From the IMG/VR virus record IMGVR_UViG_3300031689_000528: a stretch of DNA of 64,000 nt; one strand, 5' to 3'. A program made the position numbers and the translations under genes. Under the pieces are notes generated by a model, which worked only from the letters and a program-made list of their open reading frames with translations, had not been told where the DNA came from and made no database searches. Within the stretch, counting starts at the first letter, position 1. Every line of letters starts with the position of its first letter. Below, one piece after another: positions 1,453 through 48,394 of the stretch. This DNA is from an uncultured virus (IMG/VR IMGVR_UViG_3300031689_000528). Lineage: Duplodnaviria; Heunggongvirae; Uroviricota; Caudoviricetes.

Positions 1453-1457
1453 AATGT

Positions 1458-1465
1458 TATAAATA
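1458..1465 (+). promoter_or_regulatory. T4-type late promoter TATAAATA
   Basis: Exact TATAAATA 26 bp upstream of the gp48 start. Confidence 0.75.
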
Positions 1466-1491
1466 TACAATATATATAAGAGAATTAAAAT

Positions 1492-8218: not shown

Positions 8219-8442
8219 CAGTTGAAAAGAAACTAACGTTTAGAGAAAAATGGAAGAACGCCTGTAATACAGACAACGCCATTGACTTCTCTGTAGACAT
8301 TGGACTTATTGCATTTGATGTATTAGCAAGTCCTATTTTAATAGTAGTTAGAGTCTTTCGTTGGGCAATGAACAAATGGGTAAACGGTTATATTAAGAGA
8401 TTTTTAAAATGGTTTGTACATAAAGTATTAAGGATAAAATGA
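8215..8442 (+). CDS. Hypothetical small membrane-associated protein
   Basis: ATGA-coupled to both neighbours; central hydrophobic stretch. Confidence 0.6.
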   Translation: MTVEKKLTFREKWKNACNTDNAIDFSVDIGLIAFDVLASPILIVVRVFRWAMNKWVNGYIKRFLKWFVHKVLRIK

Positions 8443-8747
8443 TAACAATATTAGAGAATGCAGTAAAGCATTTATCAGAATTAAAAGCCAAACACAACGT
8501 CAAATACATAAGACTTGAAGTAAAAGGTGGAGGTTGTGCTGGGTACGAATACAAGTGGAGTTTTGAGAATGAAATTAACGAGATAGATGATTTAGTAATA
8601 GGTGATCTAGTTGTTGATAGTATGTTTGAAATGTATATTGCTGGTATGGAGTTAGACTATAAAGAAGAAATCTTTGGTAGTCAATTCGTATTCAGTAATC
8701 CAAATAGTAAATCATCATGTGGTTGTGGAACCTCTTTTAGTGTGTAA
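8439..8747 (+). CDS. iscA: A-type Fe-S cluster carrier (IscA/SufA/HesB family)
   Basis: IRLEVKGGGCAGYEY and FSNPNSKSSCGCGTSF signature motifs. Confidence 0.93.
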   Translation: MITILENAVKHLSELKAKHNVKYIRLEVKGGGCAGYEYKWSFENEINEIDDLVIGDLVVDSMFEMYIAGMELDYKEEIFGSQFVFSNPNSKSSCGCGTSFSV

Positions 8748-24200: not shown

Positions 24201-27200
24201 GGAGACATATTTGAGTTAAGAGATTGTTTAGACTTTAGACCAAGAGTTGACGATAACTCAACAATCAATAAAGGTGAACAAGACAAGTATTATAATGGTG
24301 CTGGCGCTTCAGTTGTAGATGTTGCTAAGTTCGGTACTGATATAACTTCAGATTTAGAATATTACTTACCAAGAATAGATAAAATCTTTTTAGACAGAAA
24401 CGGTAAGTTTAAGGTAGCAGAGGGCGCTAGTGCTTTAGTTCCTCAAGCACCAAAAGATATTGATAGTGCAATGCACCTTTACACTTTAGATGTGCCAGCA
24501 TATACTTTATCTACAGATGATATAACGATTACTAGAGTTGACAATAAAAGATACACAATGAGAGACATTGGTAGATTAGAGAATAGAATTGAAAATGTAG
24601 AATATTATACTCAACTATCTTTGTTAGAATCACAAGCACAAAATTTGCAAGTACAAGACGCAGAAGGATTTGATAGATTTAAGAATGGATTTATAGTAGA
24701 TAATTTCACAGGTCATAGTATAGGTGATGTAAAGAATTTAGACTACAAGGTTTCTATGGACATGGCAAGAGGTGAGTTAAGACCTATGTTCAATGAGGAT
24801 GCCGTACAATTGATTGAAAGCGACAATGACGGTACTACTATTACTGCTTTAGATAGAACTGAAGCTAAGTATGCAAAAACAGGAGATTTAATTACTTTAC
24901 CTTACACAGAGGCAACTTTAATTGATCAACCTTTTGCAAGTAAATTTGTTAACGTAAACCCTTTTGACATATTCACATGGTCAGGTAGTATTGCGTTAAC
25001 ACCACCGTCAGACGAATGGAAAGAAACAGAAAGAGTGCCAGAATTAGTTGTTAATTCAATAGGTGGTTTTGATACTCTAGTACAAAATTTAGGTAATCCA
25101 AATTTACAAAGTGTAGAAATTGGTACAGTATGGAATGAATGGCAAGATTTCTGGACAGGAACACCAACTGTAACTGGCCGTAGAAGATTAGGAAACGTTA
25201 GACGAGGTAGAAGAATTAATGCACGTCACGAAATTACTGAAACTGGTAATCAAACATCAACAAGAACAGGTGTTAGATCAACAATAGTACCACAGGTAGT
25301 AAGAAATTCAATTGGCGACAGAGTTGTTAGTGTTGGTTTTGTTCCTTTTTTAAGAAGTAGAACATTATCATTTAGTGCTACAAGATTAAAACCTTTAACA
25401 AGAGTTTACCCTTTCTTTGATAACATTGATATAGCAACTTATGTTACACCAAATGGTGGTTCATTAGGTGGTAATATAGTTACAGATATTAATGGTGCTT
25501 GTTCAGGTACTTTTGCAATTCCTGATCCAAAAGTTAATGCTAATCCAAGATGGAGAGCAGGTCAAAGAGTATTCAGATTAACAAGTTCATCAACAAACGT
25601 ATTAAGTACGGCAGTTGAAACTTCAGGTGAAGCAGACTATATCGCAAAAGGTATTTTAGAAACAGTACAAGAGACAGTTGTTTCTACAAGAGAACCTTTA
25701 GTTGTTAGAGAAAGTACTGTTGAATCAGTTAGTAGATCAAACGTAACTGCTACACGTATTACAGAAATGACAATTGGTTGGACTGACCCATTAGCACAAA
25801 CATTTATGATAGATGATGTTGGTGGTGTATTCTTAACTTCAATGGACTTATTCTTTAGTTCAAAAGATGACAATATTCCAGTAACAGTACAAATTAGAGA
25901 AGTAGTAAATGGTTATCCAGGAAAAAGAATAGTTCCATTTAGTGAATTAACTTTAAATCCGTCATCTGTAAACATAAGTACAGACGCAACAACAGCTACA
26001 ACATTTACTTTTAACTCACCAGTTTATTTACAAGAAAAAACAGAATATTGTTTTGTTGTAATGGCTAATACTAATAATTACAACTGTTATGTTGGAAGAT
26101 TAGGTGAAAAAGTAATAGGTTCAGATAGAACAATTTCTCAACAACCTTATGCTGGTGTTATGTTTAAATCTCAAAACGGTTCTACATGGACAGCAGAACA
26201 AAATGAAGATATTAAATTTAAAATCAAAAGAGCAGAATTTGAAAATGTTACAGGTACAGTTACTTTAACTAATGACGCTTTACCTACTAGAACATTAAAA
26301 ACTAATCCTATTAGAACAACAAACTCTAGTGGTGTAATGACAGTTTCACATCCTAATCACGGTATGCATGGTACAACAAACAATGTTATAATTGCAGGTA
26401 TTCCATCAGGAACTTACAATGGTGTTGCTCATTCCGATATTAATGGAACATACACAAGTATTTCAAACGTAACTTTAGATAGTTATGATATTACAACAAG
26501 TGGTACAGCAAATGCTACAGGAGATGTAGGTGGTACTGTTGTAACAGCAACACAAAACAGATTGTATGATGTTTTAAATCTAAACTTACAAACATTAAAT
26601 GTTGCCGGTACAAGCATTGCATATAACATGAGACCTACTTCAGGTAGATCAGTACATGGTTCAGAAACAGAATTTAGTTTAACAGGCGAGACTAGTCAAG
26701 TATCAACTATTGCAAATGACAATATTTACTTCACTTCACCTCAACTAGTTGCAAGTGCAATAAACGAAACAAACGAATTATCAGGAAGTAAGTCTTTATT
26801 TGTAAATCTTACTTTCAATACTACTAACACTAAATTATCTCCAGTATTAGATATGCAAAGAGTTAGTGCTTACACAATTCAAAACAGAATTAACAAAGCA
26901 ACAACAGGTAATACACCTAATTATGTTTCAGACATAGCTGCAAGTGATACATCATCAGCAGCTGCCTACATAACTAAATCTGTCGTACTAGATAATATCT
27001 CAACTGCTTTAGATGTAAGATTAACGCAGAATGTAAGATCAAGTTCTAGTGTAAAAGTTTATTACAGACTATCTTCTTCCGAAGAAGCTAGACTAATAGG
27101 TGATATAGGTTGGACACCATTTAACAGTACAGGACTAGAAGACACAACAGTTACACCTGCTGAAGATGATAATACATTTAAAGAGTACAAATATAGTGCT

Positions 27201-27311
27201 TCAGGATTAAATGAGTTTACTACTTTTCAAATAAAAATAGTTATGGAAGGAACAAACTCAGCATATCCACCAATAGTAAGAGATTTAAGAGGTATTGCAT
27301 TAGCGATATAA
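21237..27311 (+). CDS. Large virion structural protein (VrlC-like/DUF4815 type)
   Basis: NLSPYYDDF..FHRVLFRP..VQGRELTQ, APGAHR, ARRTFDESGDY, RFKNGFIVDNF, DPLAQTF and DLRGIAL; 2024 aa. Confidence 0.85.
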   Translation: MPSPTDFNLSPYYDDFNETKKFHRVLFRPAFAVQGRELTQSQSILQNQIERLSDHVFEQGAMVIPGDIGYDLNYYAVKLTSFTDSASVGITLSNFVGLTLTGASSGVQARVVHQVATDGTDPNTLFVKYINSGTDNTKTAFDDSETISVATTIDGTGTTVSAVVTSTAVGSAASIKEGVYYINGFYIKVNDQVLILDKYTNTPSYRVGLTVTESFVTQNDDATLNDNAQGVSNTNAPGAHRFKIDLTLAKKSLTATDDASFVELLRLKKGFIQNQVRTTEYAILEDTLARRTFDESGDYAVRDFDLDLREHLISGTNRGIYSSGNGGLETKIAAGLAPGKAYVRGFEIETIGTSFVDVNKARSFDTQNNSNTRFDIGNFVYVNNVYGSPDVGFVSGDVAAFKKVGLYNKETSARGTENAGSGSSINSIGRAKSRGFEYTSGSATSGFFASSSANASVFKHYLFDLVMFTHINVAKNQSFTNGEKITGSTSAATGTYENISTNNSHTITGATAANPVVITSSNTLKEGQQVTISTVVGMTELNGNTYTVKNPTASNFELDVDGSSFTTYTSGGIADQSVVVLSSVSGTFTPGETITGAISSNTATIQANARGFKGVTSFDFSSTKQLGMAGSPTYTADTKLDSTYGESLQITGTISIANSSNTVTGFGTKFNTELRVNDKLSFTTNAGTTVNKIVEAIISDTSLVFSTAVGGSDVSTKSNSNRNRGKLTDSNKNVNVFKLPYENVKTLKTTANSGASDTNFKVRRHFATTLGSNGDATISAGTNETFTSLTENDFSVSIMTTGSGGTGAVGDFMSLTGSNHEGDSIFTLGGSPSGKSLTLDFGSNFAGHKIKILATINRSVVEEKTKSLVTGYTRNQISLADINKQGGMRLSVADVYKLNSVKMATAFGTYSSSGEVDITDRFTLDNGQRDNFYDIGRVFLKTGAVAPTGSIQINVDYFSHGSGDVFTVDSYSGAVDYADIPSHTSDTTGDIFELRDCLDFRPRVDDNSTINKGEQDKYYNGAGASVVDVAKFGTDITSDLEYYLPRIDKIFLDRNGKFKVAEGASALVPQAPKDIDSAMHLYTLDVPAYTLSTDDITITRVDNKRYTMRDIGRLENRIENVEYYTQLSLLESQAQNLQVQDAEGFDRFKNGFIVDNFTGHSIGDVKNLDYKVSMDMARGELRPMFNEDAVQLIESDNDGTTITALDRTEAKYAKTGDLITLPYTEATLIDQPFASKFVNVNPFDIFTWSGSIALTPPSDEWKETERVPELVVNSIGGFDTLVQNLGNPNLQSVEIGTVWNEWQDFWTGTPTVTGRRRLGNVRRGRRINARHEITETGNQTSTRTGVRSTIVPQVVRNSIGDRVVSVGFVPFLRSRTLSFSATRLKPLTRVYPFFDNIDIATYVTPNGGSLGGNIVTDINGACSGTFAIPDPKVNANPRWRAGQRVFRLTSSSTNVLSTAVETSGEADYIAKGILETVQETVVSTREPLVVRESTVESVSRSNVTATRITEMTIGWTDPLAQTFMIDDVGGVFLTSMDLFFSSKDDNIPVTVQIREVVNGYPGKRIVPFSELTLNPSSVNISTDATTATTFTFNSPVYLQEKTEYCFVVMANTNNYNCYVGRLGEKVIGSDRTISQQPYAGVMFKSQNGSTWTAEQNEDIKFKIKRAEFENVTGTVTLTNDALPTRTLKTNPIRTTNSSGVMTVSHPNHGMHGTTNNVIIAGIPSGTYNGVAHSDINGTYTSISNVTLDSYDITTSGTANATGDVGGTVVTATQNRLYDVLNLNLQTLNVAGTSIAYNMRPTSGRSVHGSETEFSLTGETSQVSTIANDNIYFTSPQLVASAINETNELSGSKSLFVNLTFNTTNTKLSPVLDMQRVSAYTIQNRINKATTGNTPNYVSDIAASDTSSAAAYITKSVVLDNISTALDVRLTQNVRSSSSVKVYYRLSSSEEARLIGDIGWTPFNSTGLEDTTVTPAEDDNTFKEYKYSASGLNEFTTFQIKIVMEGTNSAYPPIVRDLRGIALAI

Positions 27312-31277: not shown

Positions 31278-32564
31278 TTAATAATTAGTTTCTCTTTTTG
31301 CCTTTAAATAGTATTCTTCTAGTTCGGGGTGTGTTGTAAATAAATCGTGTCCTTCTTTTTTACTAAAACCATTTTGGTCTAAATCGTGACAGTAATCAAT
31401 TGTCTTAATAAATTCTTCAACATCTTGTTCTTTGTCTAATGCTTTTATAATATTAGGATAGTCTTTATAAAATGGTTTTAACTTCTCTTTAATTTCTTTA
31501 GGTAAATTCTTTACTTGTAATATTCTTGGGTGTTCAATGATATAAAACGTGTGTTGTATACCCATATCTTTTAATAATGCAATTAGTTTATAATTTTCTA
31601 GTACACTTAAAAAAGATATTACAGAGTGAACATTAACTCTTGCGTTTCTTCTAGCTCTCATTGTTTTCACATTATCCAAAAGTGAAGGCCAATCTGATTT
31701 CTTTCTTAAATAGTCATTATATTTACCGTAACTATCTATTGATACTTTCATAACAAACTCTTTGAAGTGAGGAAAGTAATCTCTAAAGTTGTAACCGTCC
31801 ATATCAAATACTGATAAGTTTGTTTTATAGATTAAGTCTATACCTTTTGAATGACCTGTTGCTACTAATTTGTCTAATAGTTTGTAGTGATTTTTCATAA
31901 CTAAAGGTTCGCCACCAATTAGTTTGATTGATCTAGTATACTTTGCTACGGAGGCAACATCGTCTGTATATTCATCGTCATCATGTTTCATTGTATTCAT
32001 TCTTTCACCGTCTTTAGGGTCTAGATCAGGATCATATACTTTTTTTAATTGTTTTAGTGAGAGAGTTCTAGTGTTAGCACTTCTTGGTGTACACATATAA
32101 CAATCTAGATTACAAGCATTACCAAACATCTTCATTTTAATATCTAGTATTCTTTCATCAAATTCTGTAATTGCTCCTTCTTCAACAAACTTTTGAACGG
32201 CTCTTAATAATTCTGGTACTTTACTATCAAATGTTCCTGCTAGTATTTGTTCAGTATACTTTTGTCTGTCTGAACGACCATATTTTTGTTCTTGTTTCCA
32301 ACAACCTGTACAATGATGTCTAAAATATTTTGGATCATAATCTTCTTTTAACATTTCTGCTCTTAATTTATTTTGATAGTCGGAAGTATACCATTCTTTT
32401 ATTTTAGTATCTTCCATGTTATGGCCAGTTCTAGCTAGTGCGTCATAACAAGGTGCATATCTGCCACTTAAACTAGAGAATACGTGTGTGAAAGGAAGTG
32501 GACAAAACCATAGTTTTTTATCTTTTAGTTTTTGTTCAAACTCTTTTTTCTGTTGCTCGTTCAT
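31278..32564 (-). CDS. Radical SAM protein with N-terminal SPASM/Twitch-like domain
   Basis: FCPLPF..APC..CTGCW N-domain; GNACNLDCYMC; IGGEPL; VSIDSYG motifs. Confidence 0.88.
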   Translation of the reverse strand: MNEQQKKEFEQKLKDKKLWFCPLPFTHVFSSLSGRYAPCYDALARTGHNMEDTKIKEWYTSDYQNKLRAEMLKEDYDPKYFRHHCTGCWKQEQKYGRSDRQKYTEQILAGTFDSKVPELLRAVQKFVEEGAITEFDERILDIKMKMFGNACNLDCYMCTPRSANTRTLSLKQLKKVYDPDLDPKDGERMNTMKHDDDEYTDDVASVAKYTRSIKLIGGEPLVMKNHYKLLDKLVATGHSKGIDLIYKTNLSVFDMDGYNFRDYFPHFKEFVMKVSIDSYGKYNDYLRKKSDWPSLLDNVKTMRARRNARVNVHSVISFLSVLENYKLIALLKDMGIQHTFYIIEHPRILQVKNLPKEIKEKLKPFYKDYPNIIKALDKEQDVEEFIKTIDYCHDLDQNGFSKKEGHDLFTTHPELEEYYLKAKRETNY

Positions 32565-36375: not shown

Positions 36376-36774
36376 TTATAGTCCCATTAAATCTCTTATT
36401 TCAGGATCAATCATATCTCTAGACCACATAGGTGTCATTGTAATTCTGACTTTACATTTTAATCCTGGAATACTTTCAACAGCTTGTCTAACTCCATTAA
36501 CTATTTCATCTACTGCTGGACAAAAAGCAGACGTTAAACTCATTAATACAAATACATATCTTTCAGAGGTAACTTTAACGTCATATATAAGTCCAAGTGT
36601 ATATATGTCTGTATCAATTTCAGGATCATAACAAGTTTTAAGTTTCTCTGTAATCTTATTAATAAACTCTAGACGCATTTCTTGGTCGTCTTTAATATCT
36701 GATAAAGTAGCGTTAACTTGTGGGTCAACCGATGGTGTAGGTTGTCTTAAATCTGGATCATCTGTTTCATTCAT
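36376..36774 (-). CDS. sufT: DUF59/SufT (MIP18/PaaD-like) Fe-S assembly protein
   Basis: LKTCYDPEIDTDIYTLGLIYDV, MSLTSAFCP and PMWSRDM motifs. Confidence 0.88.
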   Translation of the reverse strand: MNETDDPDLRQPTPSVDPQVNATLSDIKDDQEMRLEFINKITEKLKTCYDPEIDTDIYTLGLIYDVKVTSERYVFVLMSLTSAFCPAVDEIVNGVRQAVESIPGLKCKVRITMTPMWSRDMIDPEIRDLMGL

Positions 36775-36783
36775 AATTTACTC

Positions 36784-37623
36784 CTATACGTTCAATATGT
36801 TAGCGTACTTCTCAATAGGGAAGTGTCCCTTTGGTTGTACATACTCCTTACATGTTACACAATACTTTTCATATTTAAATAACTGGAAATTCATCATCTT
36901 GTCTACGTTTTCTTTTGTCATAGGAAACGATCTAGATAGTTCAAGATTGTTAGCAAACTTTTTACTACAGTGTACTATAGTTTTTGTTTCAAAGTTTATT
37001 ACTGGTACCATTGGAAAAGCGGCACACATTTTACGATCTATTTCAGCTGCTTGTTTATGTACTTCTTCTACATCACCTTTAGTTGGTGTTCTACCATTAA
37101 ATGCTTTGAACATAGTATTTTTATGTTCTAGTTTCTTTTTAAATTCTGGATAGTTTGCTATGTATTTAAAGTAATTAGGTGTTTTAAGTACTACGTTATA
37201 GTTATTCATATCATTTGGTTCTAGATAGTCATAGTTACCTAATTTCTTTATCTCATCTGGATAAAAATCTAACGTTAAATGTTCTACATATAAAATATCT
37301 GGGTCTTTTAGTATCTCTGGGTATCTTTTTCTTATAAAAGAGTTAGATAAAACTTGGCAAATAAAATTAGGGTATTCTTTTACCATTGCAATCACTTCAC
37401 GCAAGTTCTTAATTAGACCTGGCTCTCCACCAAGTAAACATATTCTAGTCTTATAATTCTTTAAACTTTCTAACGTTTCTCTTAAAAAATCTAAATCTAC
37501 TGTTAAGTTTCTCATTTCTAGAGTATAACTTGTACAGTAGTGACAATCTTTATTACAAGACATTGATAGAAAGAAATCTACAGCTAAGTAGTTCTTTTGT
37601 GCATATGTTAAATCAAATTTCAT
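36784..37623 (-). CDS. Radical SAM protein
   Basis: CNKDCHYC, LLGGEPGL and C-terminal C..HC..CVTC. Confidence 0.85.
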   Translation of the reverse strand: MKFDLTYAQKNYLAVDFFLSMSCNKDCHYCTSYTLEMRNLTVDLDFLRETLESLKNYKTRICLLGGEPGLIKNLREVIAMVKEYPNFICQVLSNSFIRKRYPEILKDPDILYVEHLTLDFYPDEIKKLGNYDYLEPNDMNNYNVVLKTPNYFKYIANYPEFKKKLEHKNTMFKAFNGRTPTKGDVEEVHKQAAEIDRKMCAAFPMVPVINFETKTIVHCSKKFANNLELSRSFPMTKENVDKMMNFQLFKYEKYCVTCKEYVQPKGHFPIEKYANILNV

Positions 37624-40324: not shown

Positions 40325-41391
40325 AGGTTATTTAATATTGTATTGCATACATCTTTTACTTCTTCATCTTTCATAAATGGGTGTATTGGTAATGTTAATA
40401 CAGAGCTACTAACTAGTTTACTATTTTTACAGTTATCACTTCTATGTTCTATGTTTTTATACATAGGTCTTTCCGAAATAAGTTTTTCATAATGAATATT
40501 AGCACCTAGTTTTCCTTTTATTCTATCTCTTGCCTCATTAGCTTCAACTGGATCTCCTTCATCAAATCTTATAACGTATTTATGATATGTATGATTCAGA
40601 CCATTTGTTGTTTCTTGTACAGCTACATAACCTTTTAGTTCATCATCATATTTTTTTGCTATTATTTGTTTAGCCTCAATATACTGATCTAATTTTTTTA
40701 ATCTATAATCAATAAATTTTGCATTAAAGAATAACATTTTAGAATTATATCCTAGTATCTCATGGTTACCGTGTTTTCTTAACTTGATACACATATCAGC
40801 ATGTTCTTTATTATCTGTTAATACAATTCCACCACCAGCAATACCACCAATAGTTTTGTTTGCATTGAAACTTATAGTACTAAAATCTCCTTGTGTACCT
40901 GCTTTTACACCATTAAGACTTGACCCTATGGCCTGAGCTGCGTCTTCTACAAAGTATATATTTTTCTCTTTACAAAATTTTAATATTTCTGCTATATCTG
41001 TCATACTGCCAAACAAATGTGGATAGATAATTGCTTTTACTTTATCTGAATACATTTTTTTAATACTATCAAGAGTCATATGATAAGAGTATGGGTCTAT
41101 ATCACAAAATACAGGTGTTGCACCTACCATAGATATACAAGACGCTGTTGATATCCAAGAGAAGTTGGTTGTTATTACTTCATCGCCTGGTTTTATACCT
41201 AGACATTTTAGAGAAAACATTAAGGCGTCTGTACCATTTTGACATGCTACGGCATATTTTCTACCTACTATATCTGTAACTGTTTTTTCCAGAAACTCTA
41301 TGTTTTGTTCCTGATTTTCTTTCATGCATTCATCAAAGAGTTTAGTATAATTCTCTTTGTCTTCAGCATATTCATATTTCCATGCGTCCAT
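40321..41391 (-). CDS. DegT/DnrJ/EryC1/StrS PLP-dependent sugar aminotransferase
   Basis: NGTDAL, GDEVIT, GATPVFCDI, EDAAQAIG, SFNANKTIG, GYNS and LTLPIHP motifs. Confidence 0.93.
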   Translation of the reverse strand: MDAWKYEYAEDKENYTKLFDECMKENQEQNIEFLEKTVTDIVGRKYAVACQNGTDALMFSLKCLGIKPGDEVITTNFSWISTASCISMVGATPVFCDIDPYSYHMTLDSIKKMYSDKVKAIIYPHLFGSMTDIAEILKFCKEKNIYFVEDAAQAIGSSLNGVKAGTQGDFSTISFNANKTIGGIAGGGIVLTDNKEHADMCIKLRKHGNHEILGYNSKMLFFNAKFIDYRLKKLDQYIEAKQIIAKKYDDELKGYVAVQETTNGLNHTYHKYVIRFDEGDPVEANEARDRIKGKLGANIHYEKLISERPMYKNIEHRSDNCKNSKLVSSSVLTLPIHPFMKDEEVKDVCNTILNNL

Positions 41392-41756
41392 TATTTCTCC
41401 TCTACCATTTTCTTTACTCCATTTTCATAAACAGTTTCAACCTTTATCTTATCATCTTTAGCCCTTGCTTGGCAATGGTGTAAACAAGTTTGATTGATTT
41501 TTTCTAAATTGTCTCCTTTATCTCTAGCCTGGACTAGATCATCTTCAAAAGCTTGCCATTGTTTAGTGTCTAGTATATTGTCTATACTTTTATAATCTTT
41601 AAGTTTACTAATAGAGTAAATTTCTTTAAATAGTTCACTCTTTGTAGTCTTCGGGTGATCACACCAACAACATGGTAATAAGTGACCTCTATTGTCTATT
41701 GCCAAAGGCATTGGTTTCTCACCATTTATAGGTAAACATTTAGGATTTAATTTCAT
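41391..41756 (-). CDS. Stand-alone SPASM-like Fe-S domain protein
   Basis: PKCLP..LAIDNRGHLLPCCWCD...CLHHC. Confidence 0.7.
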   Translation of the reverse strand: MKLNPKCLPINGEKPMPLAIDNRGHLLPCCWCDHPKTTKSELFKEIYSISKLKDYKSIDNILDTKQWQAFEDDLVQARDKGDNLEKINQTCLHHCQARAKDDKIKVETVYENGVKKMVEEK

Positions 41757-42369
41757 ATACTGCGTTTTTTGATATTAATGCTTTTGTAGGTTTAAGAGGA
41801 TCATCATTTGTTAACCATCTTGATGATTCTGTTAACATAAAATTTATTCCGTTATTATTTGCCATTTTTTTACAAGTCTCAATATCGTTTTCATTATAAC
41901 TAAATCTAATACATTGCCATACAGGTGTACTTAATAAATGTTTAGTCGCCTCTTTCATTATCTCAAACATCTTAACACCATCTTGATTCTTCCTGTATTT
42001 ATGACTGTCTTTAGGTAGACCATCACAGGCGAATATCCATACTGCTTTAGGATTTGCCTGCCAAGATTTAATATACCATGACATAGGTTTAGCTGTAGCT
42101 GCATTATGAACAAATACCTCTGGCACATCTTTTAGTTGAGACATTATATCATTAAATTTAGGGTGATGTACTGGATCCGATAACTGTCCACAAAATGCAA
42201 CTTCTTTAAAATGTTTTGCTATCATGTCTATCTCAACAGCGCTTAGATCACGTCCATGGGGTACCAAACCATAGTTGGTAAACGATGTTTGTCTTTGGCA
42301 GTTAGGACATTCTAAAGGACATCTATGTGTCACATCTAAATTTAATCTACTATTTTTTTTAAATGACAT
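41740..42369 (-). CDS. Radical SAM protein (short core)
   Basis: HRCPLECPNCQRQ, FCGQLSDP and FACDG..YRKNQ motifs. Confidence 0.85.
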   Translation of the reverse strand: MSFKKNSRLNLDVTHRCPLECPNCQRQTSFTNYGLVPHGRDLSAVEIDMIAKHFKEVAFCGQLSDPVHHPKFNDIMSQLKDVPEVFVHNAATAKPMSWYIKSWQANPKAVWIFACDGLPKDSHKYRKNQDGVKMFEIMKEATKHLLSTPVWQCIRFSYNENDIETCKKMANNNGINFMLTESSRWLTNDDPLKPTKALISKNAVYEIKS

Positions 42370-42752
42370 TACTTTGTATCTTTTTTTAATTCTTTTCCGT
42401 CTCTATATGTTGTTTCTACCTTTATCTTATCTTCCTTTTCTCTTACCTTACAGTGGTGAATACATACACCATTGATCTTATTAAGATTATCTCCTACGTC
42501 TCTAGCTCTAACTAAATCATTTTCAAATTCTTTCCATTCTGGTTGATCCATTAATTGTTCAACTGTATCAAAATTTTCAAGTTTACTTACATCATATATC
42601 TTTTTAAATCTTTCACTATTAGTAACTGCCCTTTCGTCACACCAACAACAAGGTAATATGTAACCTCTATTGTTTATTGCCAATGGCATAGATATGTAAT
42701 TAGGGTCGTCTGGATTAGGAAGACAACGAGGTCTTAATTTAATATTCTTCAT
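42369..42752 (-). CDS. Stand-alone SPASM-like Fe-S domain protein
   Basis: PRCLP..LAINNRGYILPCCWCD...CIHHC. Confidence 0.7.
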   Translation of the reverse strand: MKNIKLRPRCLPNPDDPNYISMPLAINNRGYILPCCWCDERAVTNSERFKKIYDVSKLENFDTVEQLMDQPEWKEFENDLVRARDVGDNLNKINGVCIHHCKVREKEDKIKVETTYRDGKELKKDTK

Positions 42753-43404
42753 ATTTCCTTCTACCTTCTAATTTATCTTTTAATGTTTGTTTATATTTAC
42801 CTGTCGGTCTAAATGGATCAGGTTTTCCGTCTCTATCTTTCCATCTGGAAGATTGTGTTAGTAGAAAATCTATTCCATTACTATTGGCCATGTTCTTAGC
42901 TTCTTCTATATCATTTTCGTTATAGTTAAATATTATGTATTGCCATATTGGTATTACTTTTAAATGTTTAACAGACTCCTTCATTATCTCAAACATTTTT
43001 TCTCCATCTTGGTTTTTTCTATACTTGTGGCTATCTTTTGGTAAACCATCACACGCAAAAGTCCATAGAGCATTTGGATTTGCTTTCCAAGATTTAATAT
43101 ACCATGCCATAGGTTTTGCTGTAGAGGCATTGTGTACTAAAACTTCAGGTATTTCAAGATCATGTAGTCTTTGTAGTATTTGAGGAAATTTAGGGTGGTG
43201 TATAGGGTCAGATAACTGACCACAGAAAGTAAAAGACTTAAAGTGTATTGCTAGTTTTTCTATTTCTATCATTGTCAAGTCACGACCATGAGGTACTTTA
43301 CCTCTAAATGTAAAAGCAGTTTGTCTTTGACAATTAGGACATTCAAGAGGACATCTATGGGAAGAGTCTACGTTTATCGTTGTTCTAGTTTTAAAGTATG
43401 TCAT
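42739..43404 (-). CDS. Radical SAM protein (short core)
   Basis: HRCPLECPNCQRQ, FCGQLSDP and WQYIIFNYNE motifs. Confidence 0.85.
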   Translation of the reverse strand: MTYFKTRTTINVDSSHRCPLECPNCQRQTAFTFRGKVPHGRDLTMIEIEKLAIHFKSFTFCGQLSDPIHHPKFPQILQRLHDLEIPEVLVHNASTAKPMAWYIKSWKANPNALWTFACDGLPKDSHKYRKNQDGEKMFEIMKESVKHLKVIPIWQYIIFNYNENDIEEAKNMANSNGIDFLLTQSSRWKDRDGKPDPFRPTGKYKQTLKDKLEGRRKYEEY

Positions 43405-44265: not shown

Positions 44266-44286
44266 TATTTATAACACTTATAAATA
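44266..44286. promoter_or_regulatory. Divergent late-promoter pair
   Basis: TATTTATA at 44266-44273 (minus) and TATAAATA at 44279-44286 (plus). Confidence 0.75.
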
Positions 44287-44308: not shown

Positions 44309-44464
44309 ATGACAATAAAACAAAAACATAAAGACTTAAAGACTAAAGTAATTAAAGCAGAGACAAAAAGAGAATTGAGACGAGGTCCTACAAGTTGGTT
44401 TGACCTACGTATGTTAAAGAAACTAAAATTACAAATGAAAGACAAATTAAAATTATCTAAATGA
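44309..44464 (+). CDS. 51-aa DUF465/YdcH-like small coiled-coil protein (not in ORF track)
   Basis: GGAGG RBS; MTIKQKHKDLK...LRMLKKLKLQMKDKL; ATGA overlap with the next gene. Confidence 0.65.
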   Translation: MTIKQKHKDLKTKVIKAETKRELRRGPTSWFDLRMLKKLKLQMKDKLKLSK

Positions 44465-44916
44465 TTAAATTTCAATATGATTTAGAAAAGATTAAGAAAG
44501 AGTTGGAATCTTTACCAGATTATAACAAACAGTTATATCTGCAAGGTCACTCTAAAGATATGGATCCTGAAGAAGGAGCTGGCAAAGGTTATGATATAGA
44601 CAGTAGCGAACACACATATACTATTCCATTATTTGATATACCTTACATCAATAGTATAATGGAAGAACATAAACTTACTAGAACAAGATTAATGAGAATG
44701 AAACCTAAAGCATGTTATCTTTGGCACAATGATTTAACAAAAAGATTACACATACCAATTGTTACAAATGATCATTGTTTTTTATTATTAGACAGTGATA
44801 GAATACACATACCAGCGACAGGCGAGGCATATGTAATAGATACTACTAAATTTCATACAGCATTAAACTGCTCAAAGGAAAATCGTATTCATATTGTTGG
44901 AGGACTACCTTACTAA
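44461..44916 (+). CDS. Aspartyl/asparaginyl beta-hydroxylase-like 2OG-Fe(II) dioxygenase
   Basis: RTRLM, WHND (HxD), RLHIPIVTN, HTALN and RIHIV motifs. Confidence 0.8.
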   Translation: MIKFQYDLEKIKKELESLPDYNKQLYLQGHSKDMDPEEGAGKGYDIDSSEHTYTIPLFDIPYINSIMEEHKLTRTRLMRMKPKACYLWHNDLTKRLHIPIVTNDHCFLLLDSDRIHIPATGEAYVIDTTKFHTALNCSKENRIHIVGGLPY

Positions 44917-46202
44917 TGTTATATGACGCTCTTATAACTTCACTACCAGGAATGGATAAAAGTAAACCTGCACCTGGTCCTTCTTTTTTAAAAGGATATT
45001 TAGAGACACAAGGATTTAAAATCAAAGTTATAGATGGCAATCAGTTAGATACTTTAGATAATATTCATAAAGAAATTGCAAAATATGATTTCAGATGGCT
45101 AGGTATATCTGTATTCTCTTATGAACAAAAAGATGACGCCTTAAAATTAGGTGAAAGATATGAAAATGTATTGTATGGTGGATCGGGTGTAGATATAGCA
45201 TGGCCATCAAAATATTATATTACAGGAGAAGGAGAGTACGCCTTTGTAGAATTTTTAAATAACAATTTTGATTATCCTGGCATTAACGGAAAACAACCAA
45301 AACAAATAGAAGACATAGAGTCATTACCACCACCTGATTATTCAGACGTAATACAACAACATAACTATCGTAAATTTGTAATATCTGGTTCTAGAGGTTG
45401 CGTTAGAAATTGTACCTTTTGTGATGTTGCAAGTATATGGCCTAAATTTAGATGGAAGACAGGTAAGAAGATAGCAGACGAAATGCACCACGTATCAGAA
45501 ACTACAGGTGGAAACAAAATACATTTTTCAGACTCTTTAGTTAACGGATCAATGAAACACTTTAGGGATTTGTGTGCTGAGTTAGCTACTAGACCTAAAA
45601 AGATTAAATGGGAAGGACAGTTTATCGTTAGAGCAGAAAAAACTTTCTCTAAACAGGACTTTGATAACTTAGCCAACTCTGGTTGTAATGGTTTAGAAAT
45701 GGGTATAGAGGCAGGTAATGAAGAAGTTAGAGATCATATGAAAAAGAAGTTTACCAATGAAGACATAAAATACTTTGTAACTAATTTAGGTGAACGAAAT
45801 ATTACAATGAAGTTTTTACTTATTGTAGGTTATCCTACGGAAACGGAAAAAATGTTTGAAGATACTCTACAACTAATAAGAGACTATGCAAAGTATTCAC
45901 ATTTAATAAGTATATCACACCATGTTATGATGACCTTTAAAAATACACCATTAGACTTTGAACATAGAGAGTTGTTTGATAGTGAGTTTGGTTTTAAATG
46001 GAAGAATAAAAATTCAGACTTTGATATAAGATTTCAAAGATTTATAAAAGTATATGAGTTAGGCAATGAATTAGGTTATAATTTCCAACAACATTGTATT
46101 GATAAGATAGAGAGATACAAATCCGACAAACTTAATGAAAAAAGAAAGTCTATAGGATTTGCACACCCTAAAGCAAAGAAAACTTTACACGTTCAAAGTT
46201 AA
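44916..46202 (+). CDS. B12-binding-domain radical SAM protein
   Basis: N-terminal PAPGPSFLKGYL..D.N..LGIS..YGG..GEGE B12-binding-like domain; SRGCVRNCTFC; FSDSLVNG; GIEAG; LIVGYPTET. Confidence 0.85.
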   Translation: MLYDALITSLPGMDKSKPAPGPSFLKGYLETQGFKIKVIDGNQLDTLDNIHKEIAKYDFRWLGISVFSYEQKDDALKLGERYENVLYGGSGVDIAWPSKYYITGEGEYAFVEFLNNNFDYPGINGKQPKQIEDIESLPPPDYSDVIQQHNYRKFVISGSRGCVRNCTFCDVASIWPKFRWKTGKKIADEMHHVSETTGGNKIHFSDSLVNGSMKHFRDLCAELATRPKKIKWEGQFIVRAEKTFSKQDFDNLANSGCNGLEMGIEAGNEEVRDHMKKKFTNEDIKYFVTNLGERNITMKFLLIVGYPTETEKMFEDTLQLIRDYAKYSHLISISHHVMMTFKNTPLDFEHRELFDSEFGFKWKNKNSDFDIRFQRFIKVYELGNELGYNFQQHCIDKIERYKSDKLNEKRKSIGFAHPKAKKTLHVQS

Positions 46203-47983
46203 AAGTTCTTTTTTATTCCAAAGTTAAAGTTTCTACCATCTTGGTTATAACCATCTGGTCTTTCATAGTTTTCATCAAAAGCATTATTAAGTTTAGAGTA
46301 TATTAAATAATCTCCAATATATTTTGAAACACCAAAGTCTACTGTTGTAACCTCTGATTTAGGAATAGTAGCATAAGTCACACTATCTATATCTAAATGT
46401 TCTCCATAATAATTTATATTAGATGTTAAATTATAACCTTTGTACTCTGTATAGATACTTGTATTATTAATCCATTTTGGTTTTCTAGTTAAAGATGTTC
46501 CGTTACTTCCTTCAGAAACTATCCAACTTGTATTATTCTTTATGATAAAATTGTTTATATCATAAGTCAATCCCATTTCAGCACCATGACGAGTAGATGT
46601 ACCACTAATATTTTTTATCGTACTGTCTTGGTAGTTTAAAAGATTTTCTATATCAATTTGAAAAATAGCTATATCAATTGATTTAAGATTAGTTTCTTCA
46701 AAATGTTTTTTATATCCTATTTCGTAAGATTTACTTTCTTCAGGTTTTGCATTTTCATTACCTGAAAATCCGTAACCACTTGTACCATACATTTCATATA
46801 ACGTAGGTGCTTTATGACCTGTAGATATAGAACCTCTTATGCCGTTATGTTCAAAACCATATCTATGATTAGTAAAACTACCAAATCTTGATTGATCATC
46901 ATATCTAATACCATAAGTTAAAAAAGTATCATTAATTAAATAGTCAATTGTTCCACTGTAACCATGTAAGTGACTTTTTTTATTAACACTTGGAACATAA
47001 GAACCAATGTTAGTGTTGAAATTAACATCTGTTATTTCATGGTCAAAGCCTGAAGTAAATGATAGATTGTCATTAACAGATTTTGTATTGTCTACATGAA
47101 AAGTTTTTACATTACTTTCATATAAGTCAGTGTCGCCAGATTTAAGATATGATCTTTTATGATCACTATTATTAAATGTAAAGTGAGTATCTTTATCAAA
47201 GTAATTAATTTGTTGGTTTTTAAAATTCCACTCACTAGTGTAAGCTAAGTTATCAGAACCAGAATTATCTAAACTAGAATCATTTTGTTTGTCTATAAAA
47301 ATGGTACCTAAAGTATAACCATTATCTAAAGTAGTTTCTGTATTAAGAAAGTAACTTCTATTATCATAAGGGTCTTTTTCCGCACCTTGAGGATAAACAG
47401 AGATACCATCACTAGTCTCGTCTTCAATTCTAAAGTCTAATATAGTTTTGTGTTCTTCAAGGAATGTTCCTAATTTTATTGTTTTGTTCCATGTGTTATG
47501 AGAACCATAATCTAATGAAATTGAATTTTCATCACTAGCACAGGTTTTCATATTGATAACACCACCAATAGCTTCAGCACCATAAACTGTTCCCATAGGA
47601 CCTTTTATGATTTCTATAGCACAAGTGCCTAATGTTCCGTGTTGTCCGATATCATCTGTACCACCGGTAGTTGATCTATCTTTTATTCCGATACCATTTA
47701 ATGTTATTAATGTATGATCTGAATCTGTTCCTCTGGTAAATGTAGAAGACAGTTGATTTTTAGGACCTGAAGTTACAATATTAAGTGAAGTACTTTCATT
47801 TAAATTTTCAGGACCAATAATGTCATACGAATATGTTTTGTGTTGATGGTCGCTAGCAGTCCTTAATCCATGAATATGGAGGGTGACGACCAAGTTGCCA
47901 TCATCGTCATAGTATGATGGTTTTTCCTCATGTGCTAACGCAACGGTAGAGAAAAGAAGTATTGATAATAGTATTTTATACAT
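46199..47983 (-). CDS. btuB: TonB-dependent outer-membrane receptor, BtuB-like
   Basis: Signal peptide MYKILLSILLFSTVALA; plug motifs SSTFTRGTDSDHTLITLNGI and IEIIKGPMGTVYGAEAIGGVIN; KAPTLYEMY; PEESKSYEIG; NNAFDENYE..GRNF; terminal Phe. Confidence 0.8.
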   Translation of the reverse strand: MYKILLSILLFSTVALAHEEKPSYYDDDGNLVVTLHIHGLRTASDHQHKTYSYDIIGPENLNESTSLNIVTSGPKNQLSSTFTRGTDSDHTLITLNGIGIKDRSTTGGTDDIGQHGTLGTCAIEIIKGPMGTVYGAEAIGGVINMKTCASDENSISLDYGSHNTWNKTIKLGTFLEEHKTILDFRIEDETSDGISVYPQGAEKDPYDNRSYFLNTETTLDNGYTLGTIFIDKQNDSSLDNSGSDNLAYTSEWNFKNQQINYFDKDTHFTFNNSDHKRSYLKSGDTDLYESNVKTFHVDNTKSVNDNLSFTSGFDHEITDVNFNTNIGSYVPSVNKKSHLHGYSGTIDYLINDTFLTYGIRYDDQSRFGSFTNHRYGFEHNGIRGSISTGHKAPTLYEMYGTSGYGFSGNENAKPEESKSYEIGYKKHFEETNLKSIDIAIFQIDIENLLNYQDSTIKNISGTSTRHGAEMGLTYDINNFIIKNNTSWIVSEGSNGTSLTRKPKWINNTSIYTEYKGYNLTSNINYYGEHLDIDSVTYATIPKSEVTTVDFGVSKYIGDYLIYSKLNNAFDENYERPDGYNQDGRNFNFGIKKNF

Positions 47984-48336
47984 AGTTTTCCAATTATTAC
48001 ACATATTAAAGTTGAAACCAGTAAATTAAAATCAAATGGTATAGCCATAATATACGTTGTTAATAAATCGCCACCTGATTTATACCAGACAGCATAGTTA
48101 ATAAGAACATGCCATGTCATTACACCTACAAAAGTAGCATAGATTTCATTTTTAATAAATTTACTCGCAAGAACGAATAAGCACATACACCCATAAACAG
48201 GTATCATTAAAGAATGAAAGCCGATGAAAATATCCTTTATTAACAGAAAAGTCATTGGTAAAAGATATTGTATATAACGATTATTTGTAAGACTAGGTAA
48301 TAATATAGCAATAGCAAATAAAGGTGTCACATTCAT
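47935..48336 (-). CDS. Small integral membrane protein, DUF6580/ECF S-component-like putative transporter
   Basis: Multi-TM; MNVTPLFAIA, IKDIFIGFH..PVY, W..L.NYAVW and TYIMAIPF pattern; overlaps the btuB start. Confidence 0.6.
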   Translation of the reverse strand: MNVTPLFAIAILLPSLTNNRYIQYLLPMTFLLIKDIFIGFHSLMIPVYGCMCLFVLASKFIKNEIYATFVGVMTWHVLINYAVWYKSGGDLLTTYIMAIPFDFNLLVSTLICVIIGKLCIKYYYQYFFSLPLR

Positions 48337-48344
48337 ATTGTATC

Positions 48345-48394
48345 TATTTATACACTATTTTAAATTAAAAGGCAACCTTGAGGTCATATAAATA
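48345..48394. promoter_or_regulatory. Divergent late-promoter pair
   Basis: TATTTATA at 48345-48352 (minus, towards the membrane protein and btuB) and TATAAATA at 48387-48394 (plus). Confidence 0.72.

What the first reader, a model, noticed from the sequence alone, without database searches (positions are those of the whole stretch)
44309..48352. Candidate phage-encoded vitamin B12 uptake-and-use module (BtuB-like receptor, S-component-like membrane protein, B12-dependent radical SAM)
Seen: a TonB-dependent receptor with BtuB-like plug motifs and a small multi-TM protein form a two-gene minus-strand unit. It converges, with a shared TTAA stop overlap at 46199-46202, on a radical SAM gene carrying an N-terminal B12-binding-like domain. 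Both units have exact T4 late-promoter boxes (48345-48352; 44279-44286), and there is no room for a cobalamin riboswitch. Established: BtuB imports cobalamin across the outer membrane, solitary S-components such as BtuM move it across the inner membrane, and class B radical SAM methylases need cobalamin. Inference: the phage installs its own B12 import line late in infection to supply its own enzyme. This matters most if the host neither makes nor imports B12. No TonB/ExbBD genes are in the window, so energisation would depend on the host or another locus.
Basis: partly seen in the sequence, partly recalled or inferred. Interest (0 to 1): 0.92.

Follow-up and report, generated by a model that had tools for sequence, protein, structure and literature searches.

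The report
Phage-borne vitamin B12 uptake gene pair
A marine T4-like phage related to SAR11 phages carries its own outer-membrane B12-type receptor and a shortened inner-membrane carrier, without the B12-sensing switch that controls the bacterial versions, so infected cells probably import B12 for the phage.

Summary
On the minus strand, a 133-aa DUF6580 membrane protein (47935-48336) overlaps a 594/601-aa TonB-dependent receptor (46199-48004). Both sit behind a TATAAATA box. They converge, with overlapping stop codons, on a plus-strand run of a small protein, a cupin and a radical SAM gene.

The window is a pelagimyophage-like phage (gp6 is 68.8% identical to Pelagibacter phage Mosig), and the locus lies in its variable host-recognition island.

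A link to B12 is well supported.
- All 9 of 9 best bacterial matches to the receptor have a cobalamin riboswitch directly upstream.
- 11 of 20 bacterial DUF6580 loci are operons of riboswitch, receptor, (TonB), PduO adenosyltransferase and DUF6580.
- The DUF6580 model has the ECF S-component fold. BtuM is the top match, and a family profile hits CbrT.
- The phage copies have no riboswitch and lack helix 1.

The pair is adjacent in 14 of 14 viral contigs where both are visible, and evolves under purifying selection.

The link to the radical SAM is weaker. Its fold is class B. Of 30 related loci, 9 carry the pair, 16 carry a different small receptor alone and 5 carry nothing.

No TonB/ExbB was found on the phage DNA examined. 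My searches found no paper describing this. Earlier notes of this scan describe it on other DNA.

The parts
48345..48352 (-). TATAAATA box (T4-type late-promoter consensus) 8 nt upstream of the DUF6580 start codon
   Evidence: RNA-library contigs of three runs end at 48323, 48337 and 48340, just downstream of the box. This is only a weak hint.
47935..48336 (-). DUF6580 membrane protein, 133 aa: a five-helix truncated S-component-like carrier and candidate inner-membrane corrinoid transporter
   Evidence: PF20221 at 58.5 bits, matching profile positions 27-146 of 162. AF2 model pLDDT 96.1. Best fold match is BtuM 8ovv_A, Z 12.1, rmsd 2.4 A over 125 residues, chain 27-182; 12 of the top 13 rows are S-components. 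A family profile hits CbrT chain 6fnp_A at E 2e-4. Bacterial homologues lie in cobalamin-riboswitch operons in 11 of 20 loci. dN/dS 0.06-0.23.
46199..48004 (-). BtuB-like TonB-dependent receptor: 601-aa ORF with a likely start at 47983 (594 aa), a signal-peptide-like N-terminus and a TonB-box-like NLVVTL
   Evidence: Plug and barrel domains. TIGR01779 160.8 bits, below its 599.7 cut-off but 2.4 times the next family. E. coli BtuB is the full-length best PDB match. 9 of 9 best bacterial matches are riboswitch-controlled. N-terminal strand motif is kept across the clade. dN/dS 0.09-0.23.
46199..46202 (.). TTAA in which the stop codons of the convergent receptor and radical SAM genes overlap
44916..46202 (+). 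Radical SAM enzyme, 428 aa, with an N-terminal Rossmann-like domain (class B, cobalamin-dependent architecture); substrate unknown
   Evidence: PF04055 at 71.1 bits; PF02310 at 20.9 bits, below its cut-off. Top NCBIfam models are class B families, all far below their cut-offs. C162/C166/C169 are invariant in 49 homologues. AF2 pLDDT 88.7. Foldseek top matches are MgmA, TsrM, OxsB, AprD4, CysS and TokK.
44461..44916 (+). Asp/Asn beta-hydroxylase-like cupin, 151 aa, overlapping the radical SAM start by 1 nt; always found with the radical SAM
   Evidence: PF05118 at 36.1 bits. Present upstream of the radical SAM in every locus where that side is visible.
44309..44464 (+). Small basic protein, 51 aa (sub-threshold DUF465 match), first gene of the plus-strand run
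   Evidence: Partly conserved in relatives.
44279..44286 (+). TATAAATA box 22 nt upstream of the plus-strand run

Best explanation
The two minus-strand genes are a phage-carried corrinoid (vitamin B12) uptake cassette. It consists of a BtuB-type TonB-dependent outer-membrane receptor and a shortened DUF6580 protein with the fold of an ECF S-component, which would carry the vitamin across the inner membrane.

In bacteria, homologues of both genes sit in operons behind a cobalamin riboswitch that shuts them off when B12 is plentiful. The phage copies have lost the switch and sit behind a T4-type late-promoter box. An infected cell would therefore make them whatever its B12 status.

The receptor keeps a TonB-box-like strand, and no TonB/ExbB gene was found on the phage DNA examined. 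It must therefore borrow the host's TonB-ExbBD (inferred).

The most likely consumer is the convergent radical SAM enzyme, whose architecture is that of the cobalamin-dependent class B. This step is inferred from adjacency and fold, not shown.

Shown: gene identities, fold, conservation, loss of the riboswitch, and the B12-regulated context of the homologues. Inferred: substrate, transport, timing, and the link to the radical SAM.
For: Receptor:
- BtuB models are the best match by a wide margin.
- In a sample of 401 genomes of one phylum, 9 had a match at E <= 1e-25, and 9 of 9 carry RF00174 directly upstream on the same strand.
- A TonB-box-like strand is conserved across the phage clade.

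Carrier:
- PF20221 member.
- S-component fold with BtuM first, Z 12.1.
- A profile of 72 homologues hits only CbrT in the PDB, E 2e-4.
- 11 of 20 bacterial DUF6580 loci read riboswitch, receptor, DUF6580 on one strand.
- Of 7 such operons examined, 6 also hold a PduO-type cobalamin adenosyltransferase and 3 hold a TonB gene.

Pair:
- Adjacent, in the same order and overlapping, in 14 of 14 viral contigs where both positions are visible.
- Found at two different genome positions in two phage lineages.
- dN/dS 0.06-0.23.
- Fragments of all genes occur in contigs of 4 seawater RNA libraries.

Consumer:
- The radical SAM model best matches cobalamin-dependent enzymes.
- 25 of 30 related radical SAM loci have a BtuB-like receptor of one of two types in the adjacent slot.

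Context: the window also carries two Fe-S assembly genes and four more radical SAM genes, a pattern of cofactor support.
Against: - Nothing here shows binding or transport.
- The receptor scores far below the NCBIfam equivalog cut-offs: 160.8 against 599.7, and 115.4 against 836. Its nearest bacterial relatives are only 24-29% identical.
- DUF6580 is itself uncharacterised, and 9 of 20 bacterial loci give no B12 context.
- The phage carrier lacks helix 1.
- Late expression leaves little time for an outer-membrane protein to be assembled and used.
- No TonB or ExbB was found in the window or in 5 partial related viral records, 18-46% complete.
- The radical SAM occurs without any receptor in 5 of 30 loci, and with a receptor but no DUF6580 in 16 of 30.
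- The Pfam B12-binding match is below its cut-off.
- AprD4, described in the literature (my recall) as working without cobalamin, is also among the top fold matches.
- RNA-library contigs do not prove transcription.
Confidence: 0.6

Rival explanations
1. The pair does import a corrinoid, but not for the neighbouring radical SAM. It would serve host or other phage B12 enzymes, or simply be a portable cassette that landed in a variable island. On this reading the adjacency is incidental.
For: - The pair lies at a different position (between gp25/PAAR and Fe-S genes), with no such radical SAM next to it, in 4 of 12 contigs.
- The radical SAM family is far more widespread than the pair: 1230 against 38 sequence clusters.
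- The two units are convergent, so they are not co-transcribed.
- An earlier scan note calls the radical SAM a non-fixed partner of the small receptor type (unchecked).
Against: - 25 of 30 radical SAM loci keep a BtuB-like receptor of one of two types in the very next slot. That is hard to get by chance in a shuffled island.
- No other B12-dependent enzyme family was seen in the window's Pfam scans. Only 64 kb of the genome was available.
Confidence: 0.2
2. The receptor and carrier move something other than a corrinoid, for example another tetrapyrrole, a metal chelate or another vitamin. On this reading the BtuB likeness reflects ancestry only.
For: - All BtuB models are matched far below their curated cut-offs.
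- Identity to riboswitch-controlled bacterial receptors is only 24-29%.
- The phage receptor clade is separated by a large score gap from all other sequences, 312 bits down to 133.
- 9 of 20 bacterial DUF6580 genes stand alone.
- Riboswitch-controlled receptors in DUF6580 operons can themselves score higher on a siderophore model (L063, L070), so the models discriminate poorly.
Against: - Two independent lines, one for each gene, point to B12: 9 of 9 and 11 of 20 riboswitch contexts.
- The best fold match and the only PDB profile match of the carrier are the two cobalamin S-components.
Confidence: 0.1
3. The receptor is chiefly a surface-remodelling device of the host-recognition island, for example to block or decoy competing phages or bacteriocins that use the host's B12 receptor. 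On this reading transport is secondary.
For: - The locus lies among tail-fibre, glycosyltransferase and sugar-modifying genes.
- The slot has three states in close relatives: pair, small receptor alone, or empty.
- In L009 the receptor is only 44% identical while DUF6580 is 91% identical and the flanks are 70-92% identical, as expected for a swapped, exposed protein.
- The pair has a late-promoter box.
Against: - Plug, TonB-box-like strand and a dedicated inner-membrane partner are all conserved.
- Close variants show purifying selection, not diversifying selection: dN/dS 0.09-0.23.
- No test of exclusion was possible.
Confidence: 0.08
4. The genes are bacterial DNA wrongly joined to a phage contig, or decaying passengers without function.
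For: None beyond the rarity of such genes in cultured phages. There is no true phage match in 50,697 records.
Against: - The same order, with phage genes on both sides, recurs in many independent viral contigs.
- GC matches the phage.
- Frames are intact and dN/dS is 0.06-0.23.
- 14 DNA runs hold 98-99% of the stretch's sampled words, though they may include the source sample.
Confidence: 0.02

Closest known systems
E. coli BtuB, the TonB-dependent outer-membrane cobalamin transporter (PDB 1NQE-1NQH, 2GSK; TIGR01779, NF007926)
   Same: Similar size. Plug plus barrel. Aligned end to end (query 73-595 to chain 51-588, E 5.8e-22). TonB-box-like strand after the signal-peptide-like N-terminus. Ends in a C-terminal aromatic residue, a feature of outer-membrane barrels by my recall.
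   Different: Identity is low: the related Salmonella BtuB aligns at about 24% by tblastn. It scores far below the equivalog cut-offs. It has no riboswitch leader, is phage-encoded behind a late-promoter box, and overlaps an upstream carrier gene.
   Same: The same two protein families occur side by side, in 11 of 20 loci.
   Different: The bacterial order is receptor first and DUF6580 last; the phage order is DUF6580 first. The phage lacks the riboswitch, TonB and adenosyltransferase, and its DUF6580 lacks helix 1. Sequence identity is 23-39% for the carrier and 24-29% for the receptor.
BtuM of Thiobacillus denitrificans, a solitary S-component-like B12 transporter (PDB 6FFV by recall, 8OVV; PMC6072759)
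   Same: Best structural match (Z 12.1, rmsd 2.4 A, 125 residues). Small solitary membrane protein. According to that paper's passages, BtuM was predicted through co-localisation with btuB.
   Different: No sequence match. DUF6580 has no invariant cysteine, whereas BtuM's Cys80 is invariant and essential. The phage form has five helices, not six.
CbrT, the cobalamin-specific S-component of the ECF transporter of Lactobacillus delbrueckii (PDB 6FNP; PMC5997447)
   Same: The only PDB chain matched by the DUF6580 family profile, nearly end to end (E 2e-4). That the 182-residue 'Membrane protein' chain is CbrT is my inference from the entry's description in the paper.
   Different: CbrT works with an ECF module (EcfT, EcfA, EcfA'). 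No such genes were seen in the window or beside the bacterial DUF6580 genes examined.
Cobalamin-dependent (class B) radical SAM enzymes MgmA, TsrM, OxsB, CysS and TokK
   Same: N-terminal Rossmann-like domain plus radical SAM barrel. Foldseek E 1.2e-17 to 1e-12, TM 0.64-0.68. CxxxCxxC motif.
   Different: 14-18% identity. The Pfam B12-binding match is below its cut-off. The substrate is unknown. It is coupled to a small cupin. AprD4, which by my recall does not use cobalamin, matches as well.
Phage-encoded nutrient-uptake genes such as pstS of cyanomyophages and pelagimyophages (PMC12379486, passages)
   Same: A phage supplies a component of a host uptake route.
   Different: pstS is a periplasmic binding protein for an existing host ABC pump. 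Here the phage brings both membrane components for a vitamin, including an outer-membrane barrel.

Membership tests
BtuB (TonB-dependent cobalamin receptor, TIGR01779 / NF007926) | Plug domain plus TonB-dependent beta-barrel | tested here: met
   PF07715 at 37.5 bits and PF00593 at 80.3 bits, both above their cut-offs.
BtuB (TonB-dependent cobalamin receptor, TIGR01779 / NF007926) | Score above the curated equivalog cut-off | tested here: not met
   160.8 against 599.7 bits, and 115.4 against 836 bits. Riboswitch-controlled bacterial receptors from DUF6580 operons also fail it, at 135-249 bits, so the cut-off is narrow.
BtuB (TonB-dependent cobalamin receptor, TIGR01779 / NF007926) | Closest characterised or regulated relatives are cobalamin receptors | tested here: met
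   BtuB is the only full-length PDB match. 9 of 9 best bacterial matches have RF00174 upstream.
BtuB (TonB-dependent cobalamin receptor, TIGR01779 / NF007926) | TonB box near the N-terminus | tested here: inconclusive
   NLVVTL follows the signal-peptide-like N-terminus, and a like strand is kept across the clade. The comparison with the BtuB box is from my recall, and no TonB binding was tested.
BtuB (TonB-dependent cobalamin receptor, TIGR01779 / NF007926) | Binds and transports cobalamin | not testable with these tools
   Needs complementation or uptake assays.
DUF6580 (PF20221) | Match above Pfam's gathering score | tested here: met
   58.5 bits against 27. However, only profile positions 27-146 of 162 are covered: the first helix is missing.
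BtuM | ECF S-component fold | tested here: met
   8ovv_A: Z 12.1, rmsd 2.4 A, 125 residues. 12 of the top 13 rows are S-components. For helical bundles, a Z under about 13 calls for caution.
BtuM | Invariant cobalt-ligating cysteine (Cys80) | tested here: not met
   No invariant or nearly invariant cysteine in 72 DUF6580 sequences. The requirement is stated in PMC6072759 (passages).
CbrT / ECF S-components | Sequence-profile relationship | tested here: met
   6fnp_A at E 2e-4, profile 4-153 to chain 11-163. The match is weak.
CbrT / ECF S-components | Partner ECF module (EcfT and ATPases) | tested here: inconclusive
   None was seen in the window's Pfam scans or beside the bacterial homologues examined. 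Whole genomes and the host were not searched.
Class B (cobalamin-dependent) radical SAM | CxxxCxxC radical SAM core | tested here: met
   PF04055 at 71.1 bits. C162, C166 and C169 are invariant.
Class B (cobalamin-dependent) radical SAM | N-terminal cobalamin-binding Rossmann domain | tested here: inconclusive
   PF02310 at 20.9 bits against a cut-off of 32.1. Some homologues carry a precomputed PF02310 hit. The fold matches class B enzymes first, but also AprD4 and MiaB/RimO. There is no cysteine in residues 1-160, which argues against a MiaB-type auxiliary cluster.
Class B (cobalamin-dependent) radical SAM | Bound cobalamin | not testable with these tools
   Needs purification and spectroscopy.
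T4-type late promoter | TATAAATA box shortly upstream of the gene | tested here: met
   Boxes at 48345-48352(-) and 44279-44286(+). Activity was not tested. The window-wide count is not above chance.

The most novel reading that the evidence does not exclude
A virus makes its host build a complete, regulator-free, two-membrane vitamin B12 import route. The route is a miniature BtuB plus a five-helix DUF6580 carrier that needs neither a periplasmic binding protein nor an ECF module. It feeds a phage cobalamin-dependent radical SAM enzyme that works within the phage's envelope- and glycan-modifying island. If true, this would be a viral vitamin-acquisition function, and would also give DUF6580 a first functional assignment as a new family of inner-membrane B12 transporters.
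Probability: 0.35. Interest if true: 0.85.

Novelty: new variant of a known kind. Interest (0 to 1): 0.72.

Why it matters
B12 is scarce in the surface ocean, and most bacterioplankton must import it. A common group of marine phages that forces infected cells to import B12 regardless of the cell's own regulation would add a viral term to the marine B12 budget. It would also extend phage auxiliary genes from periplasmic helpers such as PstS to whole outer-membrane transporters.

The same evidence makes DUF6580 directly testable as an undescribed inner-membrane B12 carrier in bacteria. The phage's naturally truncated five-helix form defines a minimal version. The recurring link with a class B radical SAM gives a lead to a phage chemistry that needs cobalamin.

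Tried and rejected
Searches that found no phage relative:
- DNA search of the locus against 50,697 phage records: no match.
- tblastn of the receptor: only 5 records, all under 37% identity, 4 of them annotated as bacterial btuB.
- tblastn of DUF6580: none.
- tblastn of the radical SAM: best 22%.

Structure and profile searches with weak or no result:
- phmmer of DUF6580 against the PDB: nothing.
- Foldseek of its model: no match at E <= 0.001; S-components appear only at E 3-4.

Calls that failed or were limited:
- A single bacterial DUF6580 query gave one 2.2-kb contig only.
The rest of the phage genome and the host could therefore not be searched.

Context searches that gave no B12 link:
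- The nearest full-length metagenomic DUF6580 proteins (37-43% identical) showed no receptor and no riboswitch within the DNA fetched, 6 of 6 loci.
- A sample of 401 genomes of one phylum held no receptor more than 29% identical, so the donor lineage stays unknown.

Other negatives:
- The sigma-70 promoter and terminator scans were at chance level.
- The other 428-aa radical SAM (31278-32564) is not a paralogue.
- No TonB_C or MotA_ExbB was found in 5 partial related viral records.
- Parts of the stretch without cover in RNA-library contigs say nothing.

Literature:
- 'DUF6580': 0 papers.
- 'pelagimyophage' with 'TonB': 2 papers. One mentions TonB for bacteria only. The other reports a 'TonB-dependent receptor protein' annotated among the structural genes of the podophage Skadi, read there as pointing to TonB as a putative adsorption receptor (PMC10504331, passages). 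No Skadi record was among the tblastn matches.
- The pelagimyophage survey PMC7029224 has no occurrence of TonB, B12 or cobalamin in its main text. Its supplements were not read.
- 'btuB' with 'auxiliary metabolic gene', 'phage' and 'cobalamin': 3 papers, none describing a phage btuB in the passages I read.

Full report
**What the window is**

PHROGs and Pfam identify T4-type baseplate, tail, neck and sheath-stabiliser genes across the window. The gp6-like wedge protein is 68.8% identical to Pelagibacter phage Mosig, 53.1% to the OM43 phage Melnitz, 52.7% to Pelagibacter phage HTVC008M and about 40% to cyanomyophages.

The finding lies between the 2024-aa VrlC-like protein (21237-27311) and the tail-fibre and neck genes. 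This is the 'host recognition cluster' that Zaragoza-Solas et al. describe as a large variable island rich in glycosyltransferases and radical SAM cassettes (PMC7029224, passages). Here the island holds:
- an epimerase, GT8, a carbamoyltransferase, a DegT aminotransferase and glycosyltransferases;
- an Fe-S assembly protein;
- five radical SAM genes.

A second Fe-S gene lies at 8439-8747.

**The observation**

- The DUF6580 gene and the receptor gene overlap on the minus strand.
- The receptor and radical SAM stop codons share TTAA at 46199-46202.
- TATAAATA boxes lie 8 and 22 nt before the first genes of the two units.
- Only 63 nt precede DUF6580, and Rfam finds nothing in the window.
- The box count alone is not above chance: 20 against 14.2 +/- 3.6.
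- The receptor probably starts at 47983, giving 594 aa.

**The receptor**

It has Plug and barrel domains. Its best family is the TonB-dependent B12 receptor, at 160.8 bits against 68.1 for the next family, though far below the 599.7-bit equivalog cut-off. E. coli BtuB is the only PDB protein aligned end to end, at E 5.8e-22; CirA matches the plug only.

In the large protein collection, 87 clusters of 560-626 aa are at least 35% identical. There is then a gap from 312 to 133 bits. Cluster members lie on contigs of up to about 157 kb, and JGI labels many of them 'vitamin B12 transporter'.

I searched 401 genomes sampled from one bacterial phylum. Nine had a match at E <= 1e-25, at 24-29% identity. 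All nine carry a cobalamin riboswitch directly upstream on the same strand.

After the signal-peptide-like N-terminus comes NLVVTL. A similar alternating strand is kept across the clade. By recall this resembles the BtuB TonB box.

**The small membrane protein**

It is a DUF6580 member, but matches only profile positions 27-146 of 162. An exhaustive HMMER search found 167 relatives. The cellular ones are mostly 150-200 aa, and the phage protein aligns from about their residue 25-35, so the phage form lacks the first helix. All 38 close relatives are likewise short.

The AlphaFold model is confident (pLDDT 96.1). Foldseek gave nothing significant. The exhaustive structural search put BtuM with hydroxycobalamin first (Z 12.1, rmsd 2.4 A, 125 residues, chain 27-182). 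Eleven more S-components follow among the top 13 rows. A profile of 72 family members hit a single PDB chain, in the ECF-CbrT cobalamin transporter (E 2e-4).

The family has no invariant cysteine. It therefore fails the defining feature of BtuM. It works like an S-component but is its own family.

**Bacterial context of DUF6580**

The family was found in 59 of 400 genomes of one bacterial class; one of these is flagged unpublished and one further genome was not scored. I fetched 15 kb or less around 20 of them.
- Eleven of the 20 have a cobalamin riboswitch. In all eleven the order on one strand is riboswitch, TonB-dependent receptor, DUF6580.
- In 7 operons examined by Pfam, 6 also hold a PduO-type cobalamin adenosyltransferase and 3 a TonB gene. 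One (L075) has the receptor directly followed by DUF6580, with a BtuF-like binding protein further downstream.
- The other 9 of 20 stand alone, with uninformative neighbours.

This is strong guilt by association for a B12 role. No paper in the held library contains the word DUF6580.

**The pair in phages**

Searching IMG/VR with DUF6580 gave 16 contigs. In the 14 where sequence downstream is visible, the receptor follows, in the same order and overlapping.
- Eight of 12 contigs with enough sequence also have the radical SAM convergent on it.
- Four do not. In that lineage (L015, L019) the pair lies between gp25/PAAR and IscA/NifU/cupin genes.
- The pair therefore moves as a unit.
- In L009, DUF6580 is 91% identical and the flanks are 70-92% identical, but the receptor is only 44% identical. 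This suggests the receptor gene was swapped.
- dN/dS is 0.09-0.23 for the receptor and 0.06-0.23 for the carrier.
- Contigs from four seawater RNA libraries cover parts of all the genes. In three of them a contig spans most of DUF6580 and stops at 48323-48340, just below the box. Such libraries can hold DNA, so this is only a hint of expression.

**The radical SAM and the 'use' half of the idea**

The protein has the CxxxCxxC core, invariant in 49 homologues. Its N-terminal domain has no cysteine. Pfam's B12-binding model matches below its cut-off.

The model (pLDDT 88.7) best matches the cobalamin-dependent enzymes MgmA, TsrM, OxsB, CysS and TokK. It also matches AprD4, and more weakly MiaB/RimO.

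The family is widespread, with 1230 clusters. Among 30 related viral loci, the slot next to it holds:
- the pair in 9;
- a different BtuB-like receptor of about 537 aa, with no DUF6580, in 16;
- nothing in 5.

A BtuB-like gene therefore sits next to this enzyme in 25 of 30 loci, which favours a functional link. The enzyme clearly exists without a phage receptor, however, and the pair exists without the enzyme nearby. I rate the link as plausible, not shown.

**Energy and host**

No TonB, ExbB or ExbD family was seen in the window's ORFs. Neither TonB_C nor MotA_ExbB was seen in five partial related viral records. The host was not identified. Passages in two papers indicate that likely host groups have their own btuB: OM43 strain H5P1 behind a cobalamin riboswitch (PMC9004378), and SAR11 (PMC9296465). 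The phage would then add to, or override, a host route rather than create one from nothing.

**Comparison and novelty**

This is a known kind of system, B12 uptake by a BtuB-type receptor plus a small inner-membrane carrier, in a new setting and form. It is phage-encoded, lacks the riboswitch, has the reversed gene order, and has a five-helix carrier of a family with no published function. My literature searches found no description of it.

Earlier notes of this scan describe the same or similar cassettes on other DNA, one on a near-identical sequence. I formed my reading before opening them. They are not independent evidence.

**Verdict**

The import reading is well supported by comparative evidence. 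The supply-to-the-radical-SAM reading is plausible. Transport itself is untested.

Noticed in passing
L085-L088, L090, L092-L094, L097-L103, L105 (for example L102:2639-4255, minus strand): In 16 of 30 related phage loci, the slot between the radical SAM and the LtfC-like gene holds a different, smaller BtuB-like receptor. It is about 537 aa, 26-35% identical to the window's receptor, and matches TIGR01779 on the plug only (92 bits). There is no DUF6580 gene beside it. Five loci have an empty slot.
   Followed up: partly
window 8439-8747 (+), 36376-36774 (-), and the radical SAM genes at 31278-32564, 36784-37623, 41740-42369, 42739-43404 and 44916-46202: The phage carries two Fe-S cluster assembly genes (an IscA/HesB-like gene and a FeS_assembly_P gene) together with five radical SAM genes. 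This suggests cofactor support for its own enzymes.
   Followed up: partly
window 41391-43404 (-): A two-gene cassette is tandemly duplicated: a short radical SAM plus a small protein. The radical SAM copies are 67.7% identical and the small proteins 55.6% identical.
   Followed up: no
L009:8014-10133: There is a sharp change in similarity inside the pair. DUF6580 is 91% identical to the window's copy, but the overlapping receptor is only 44% identical, with flanks at 70-92%. This looks like a recombination break at the gene junction.
   Followed up: partly
L120:6959-7462 (199,541-bp metagenome contig); also L116 and L119: The nearest full-length DUF6580 proteins (37-43% identical) sit next to a cytidylyltransferase-like gene, with no receptor or riboswitch in the DNA fetched. 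In L120 the neighbours also include a dCMP deaminase and a NifU-like gene. This may be another large phage.
   Followed up: partly
L062:4549-6204 and L075:5826-7422: Some bacterial riboswitch operons with DUF6580 carry further genes: a DUF4465 protein and an unassigned 270-aa protein in L062, and a diphthamide-synthase-like protein and a BtuF-like periplasmic binding protein in L075.
   Followed up: no
window 1015-1470 (-): A TnsA-like endonuclease domain protein (PF08722, 79.2 bits) lies on the opposite strand between baseplate genes. It may be a mobile or homing element.
   Followed up: no
window 48387-48394 (+) and 44266-44273 (-): Further TATAAATA boxes face outward from both ends of the locus, towards the LtfC-like gene and the 291-aa gene. 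Each intergenic gap therefore holds a divergent pair of boxes.
   Followed up: no
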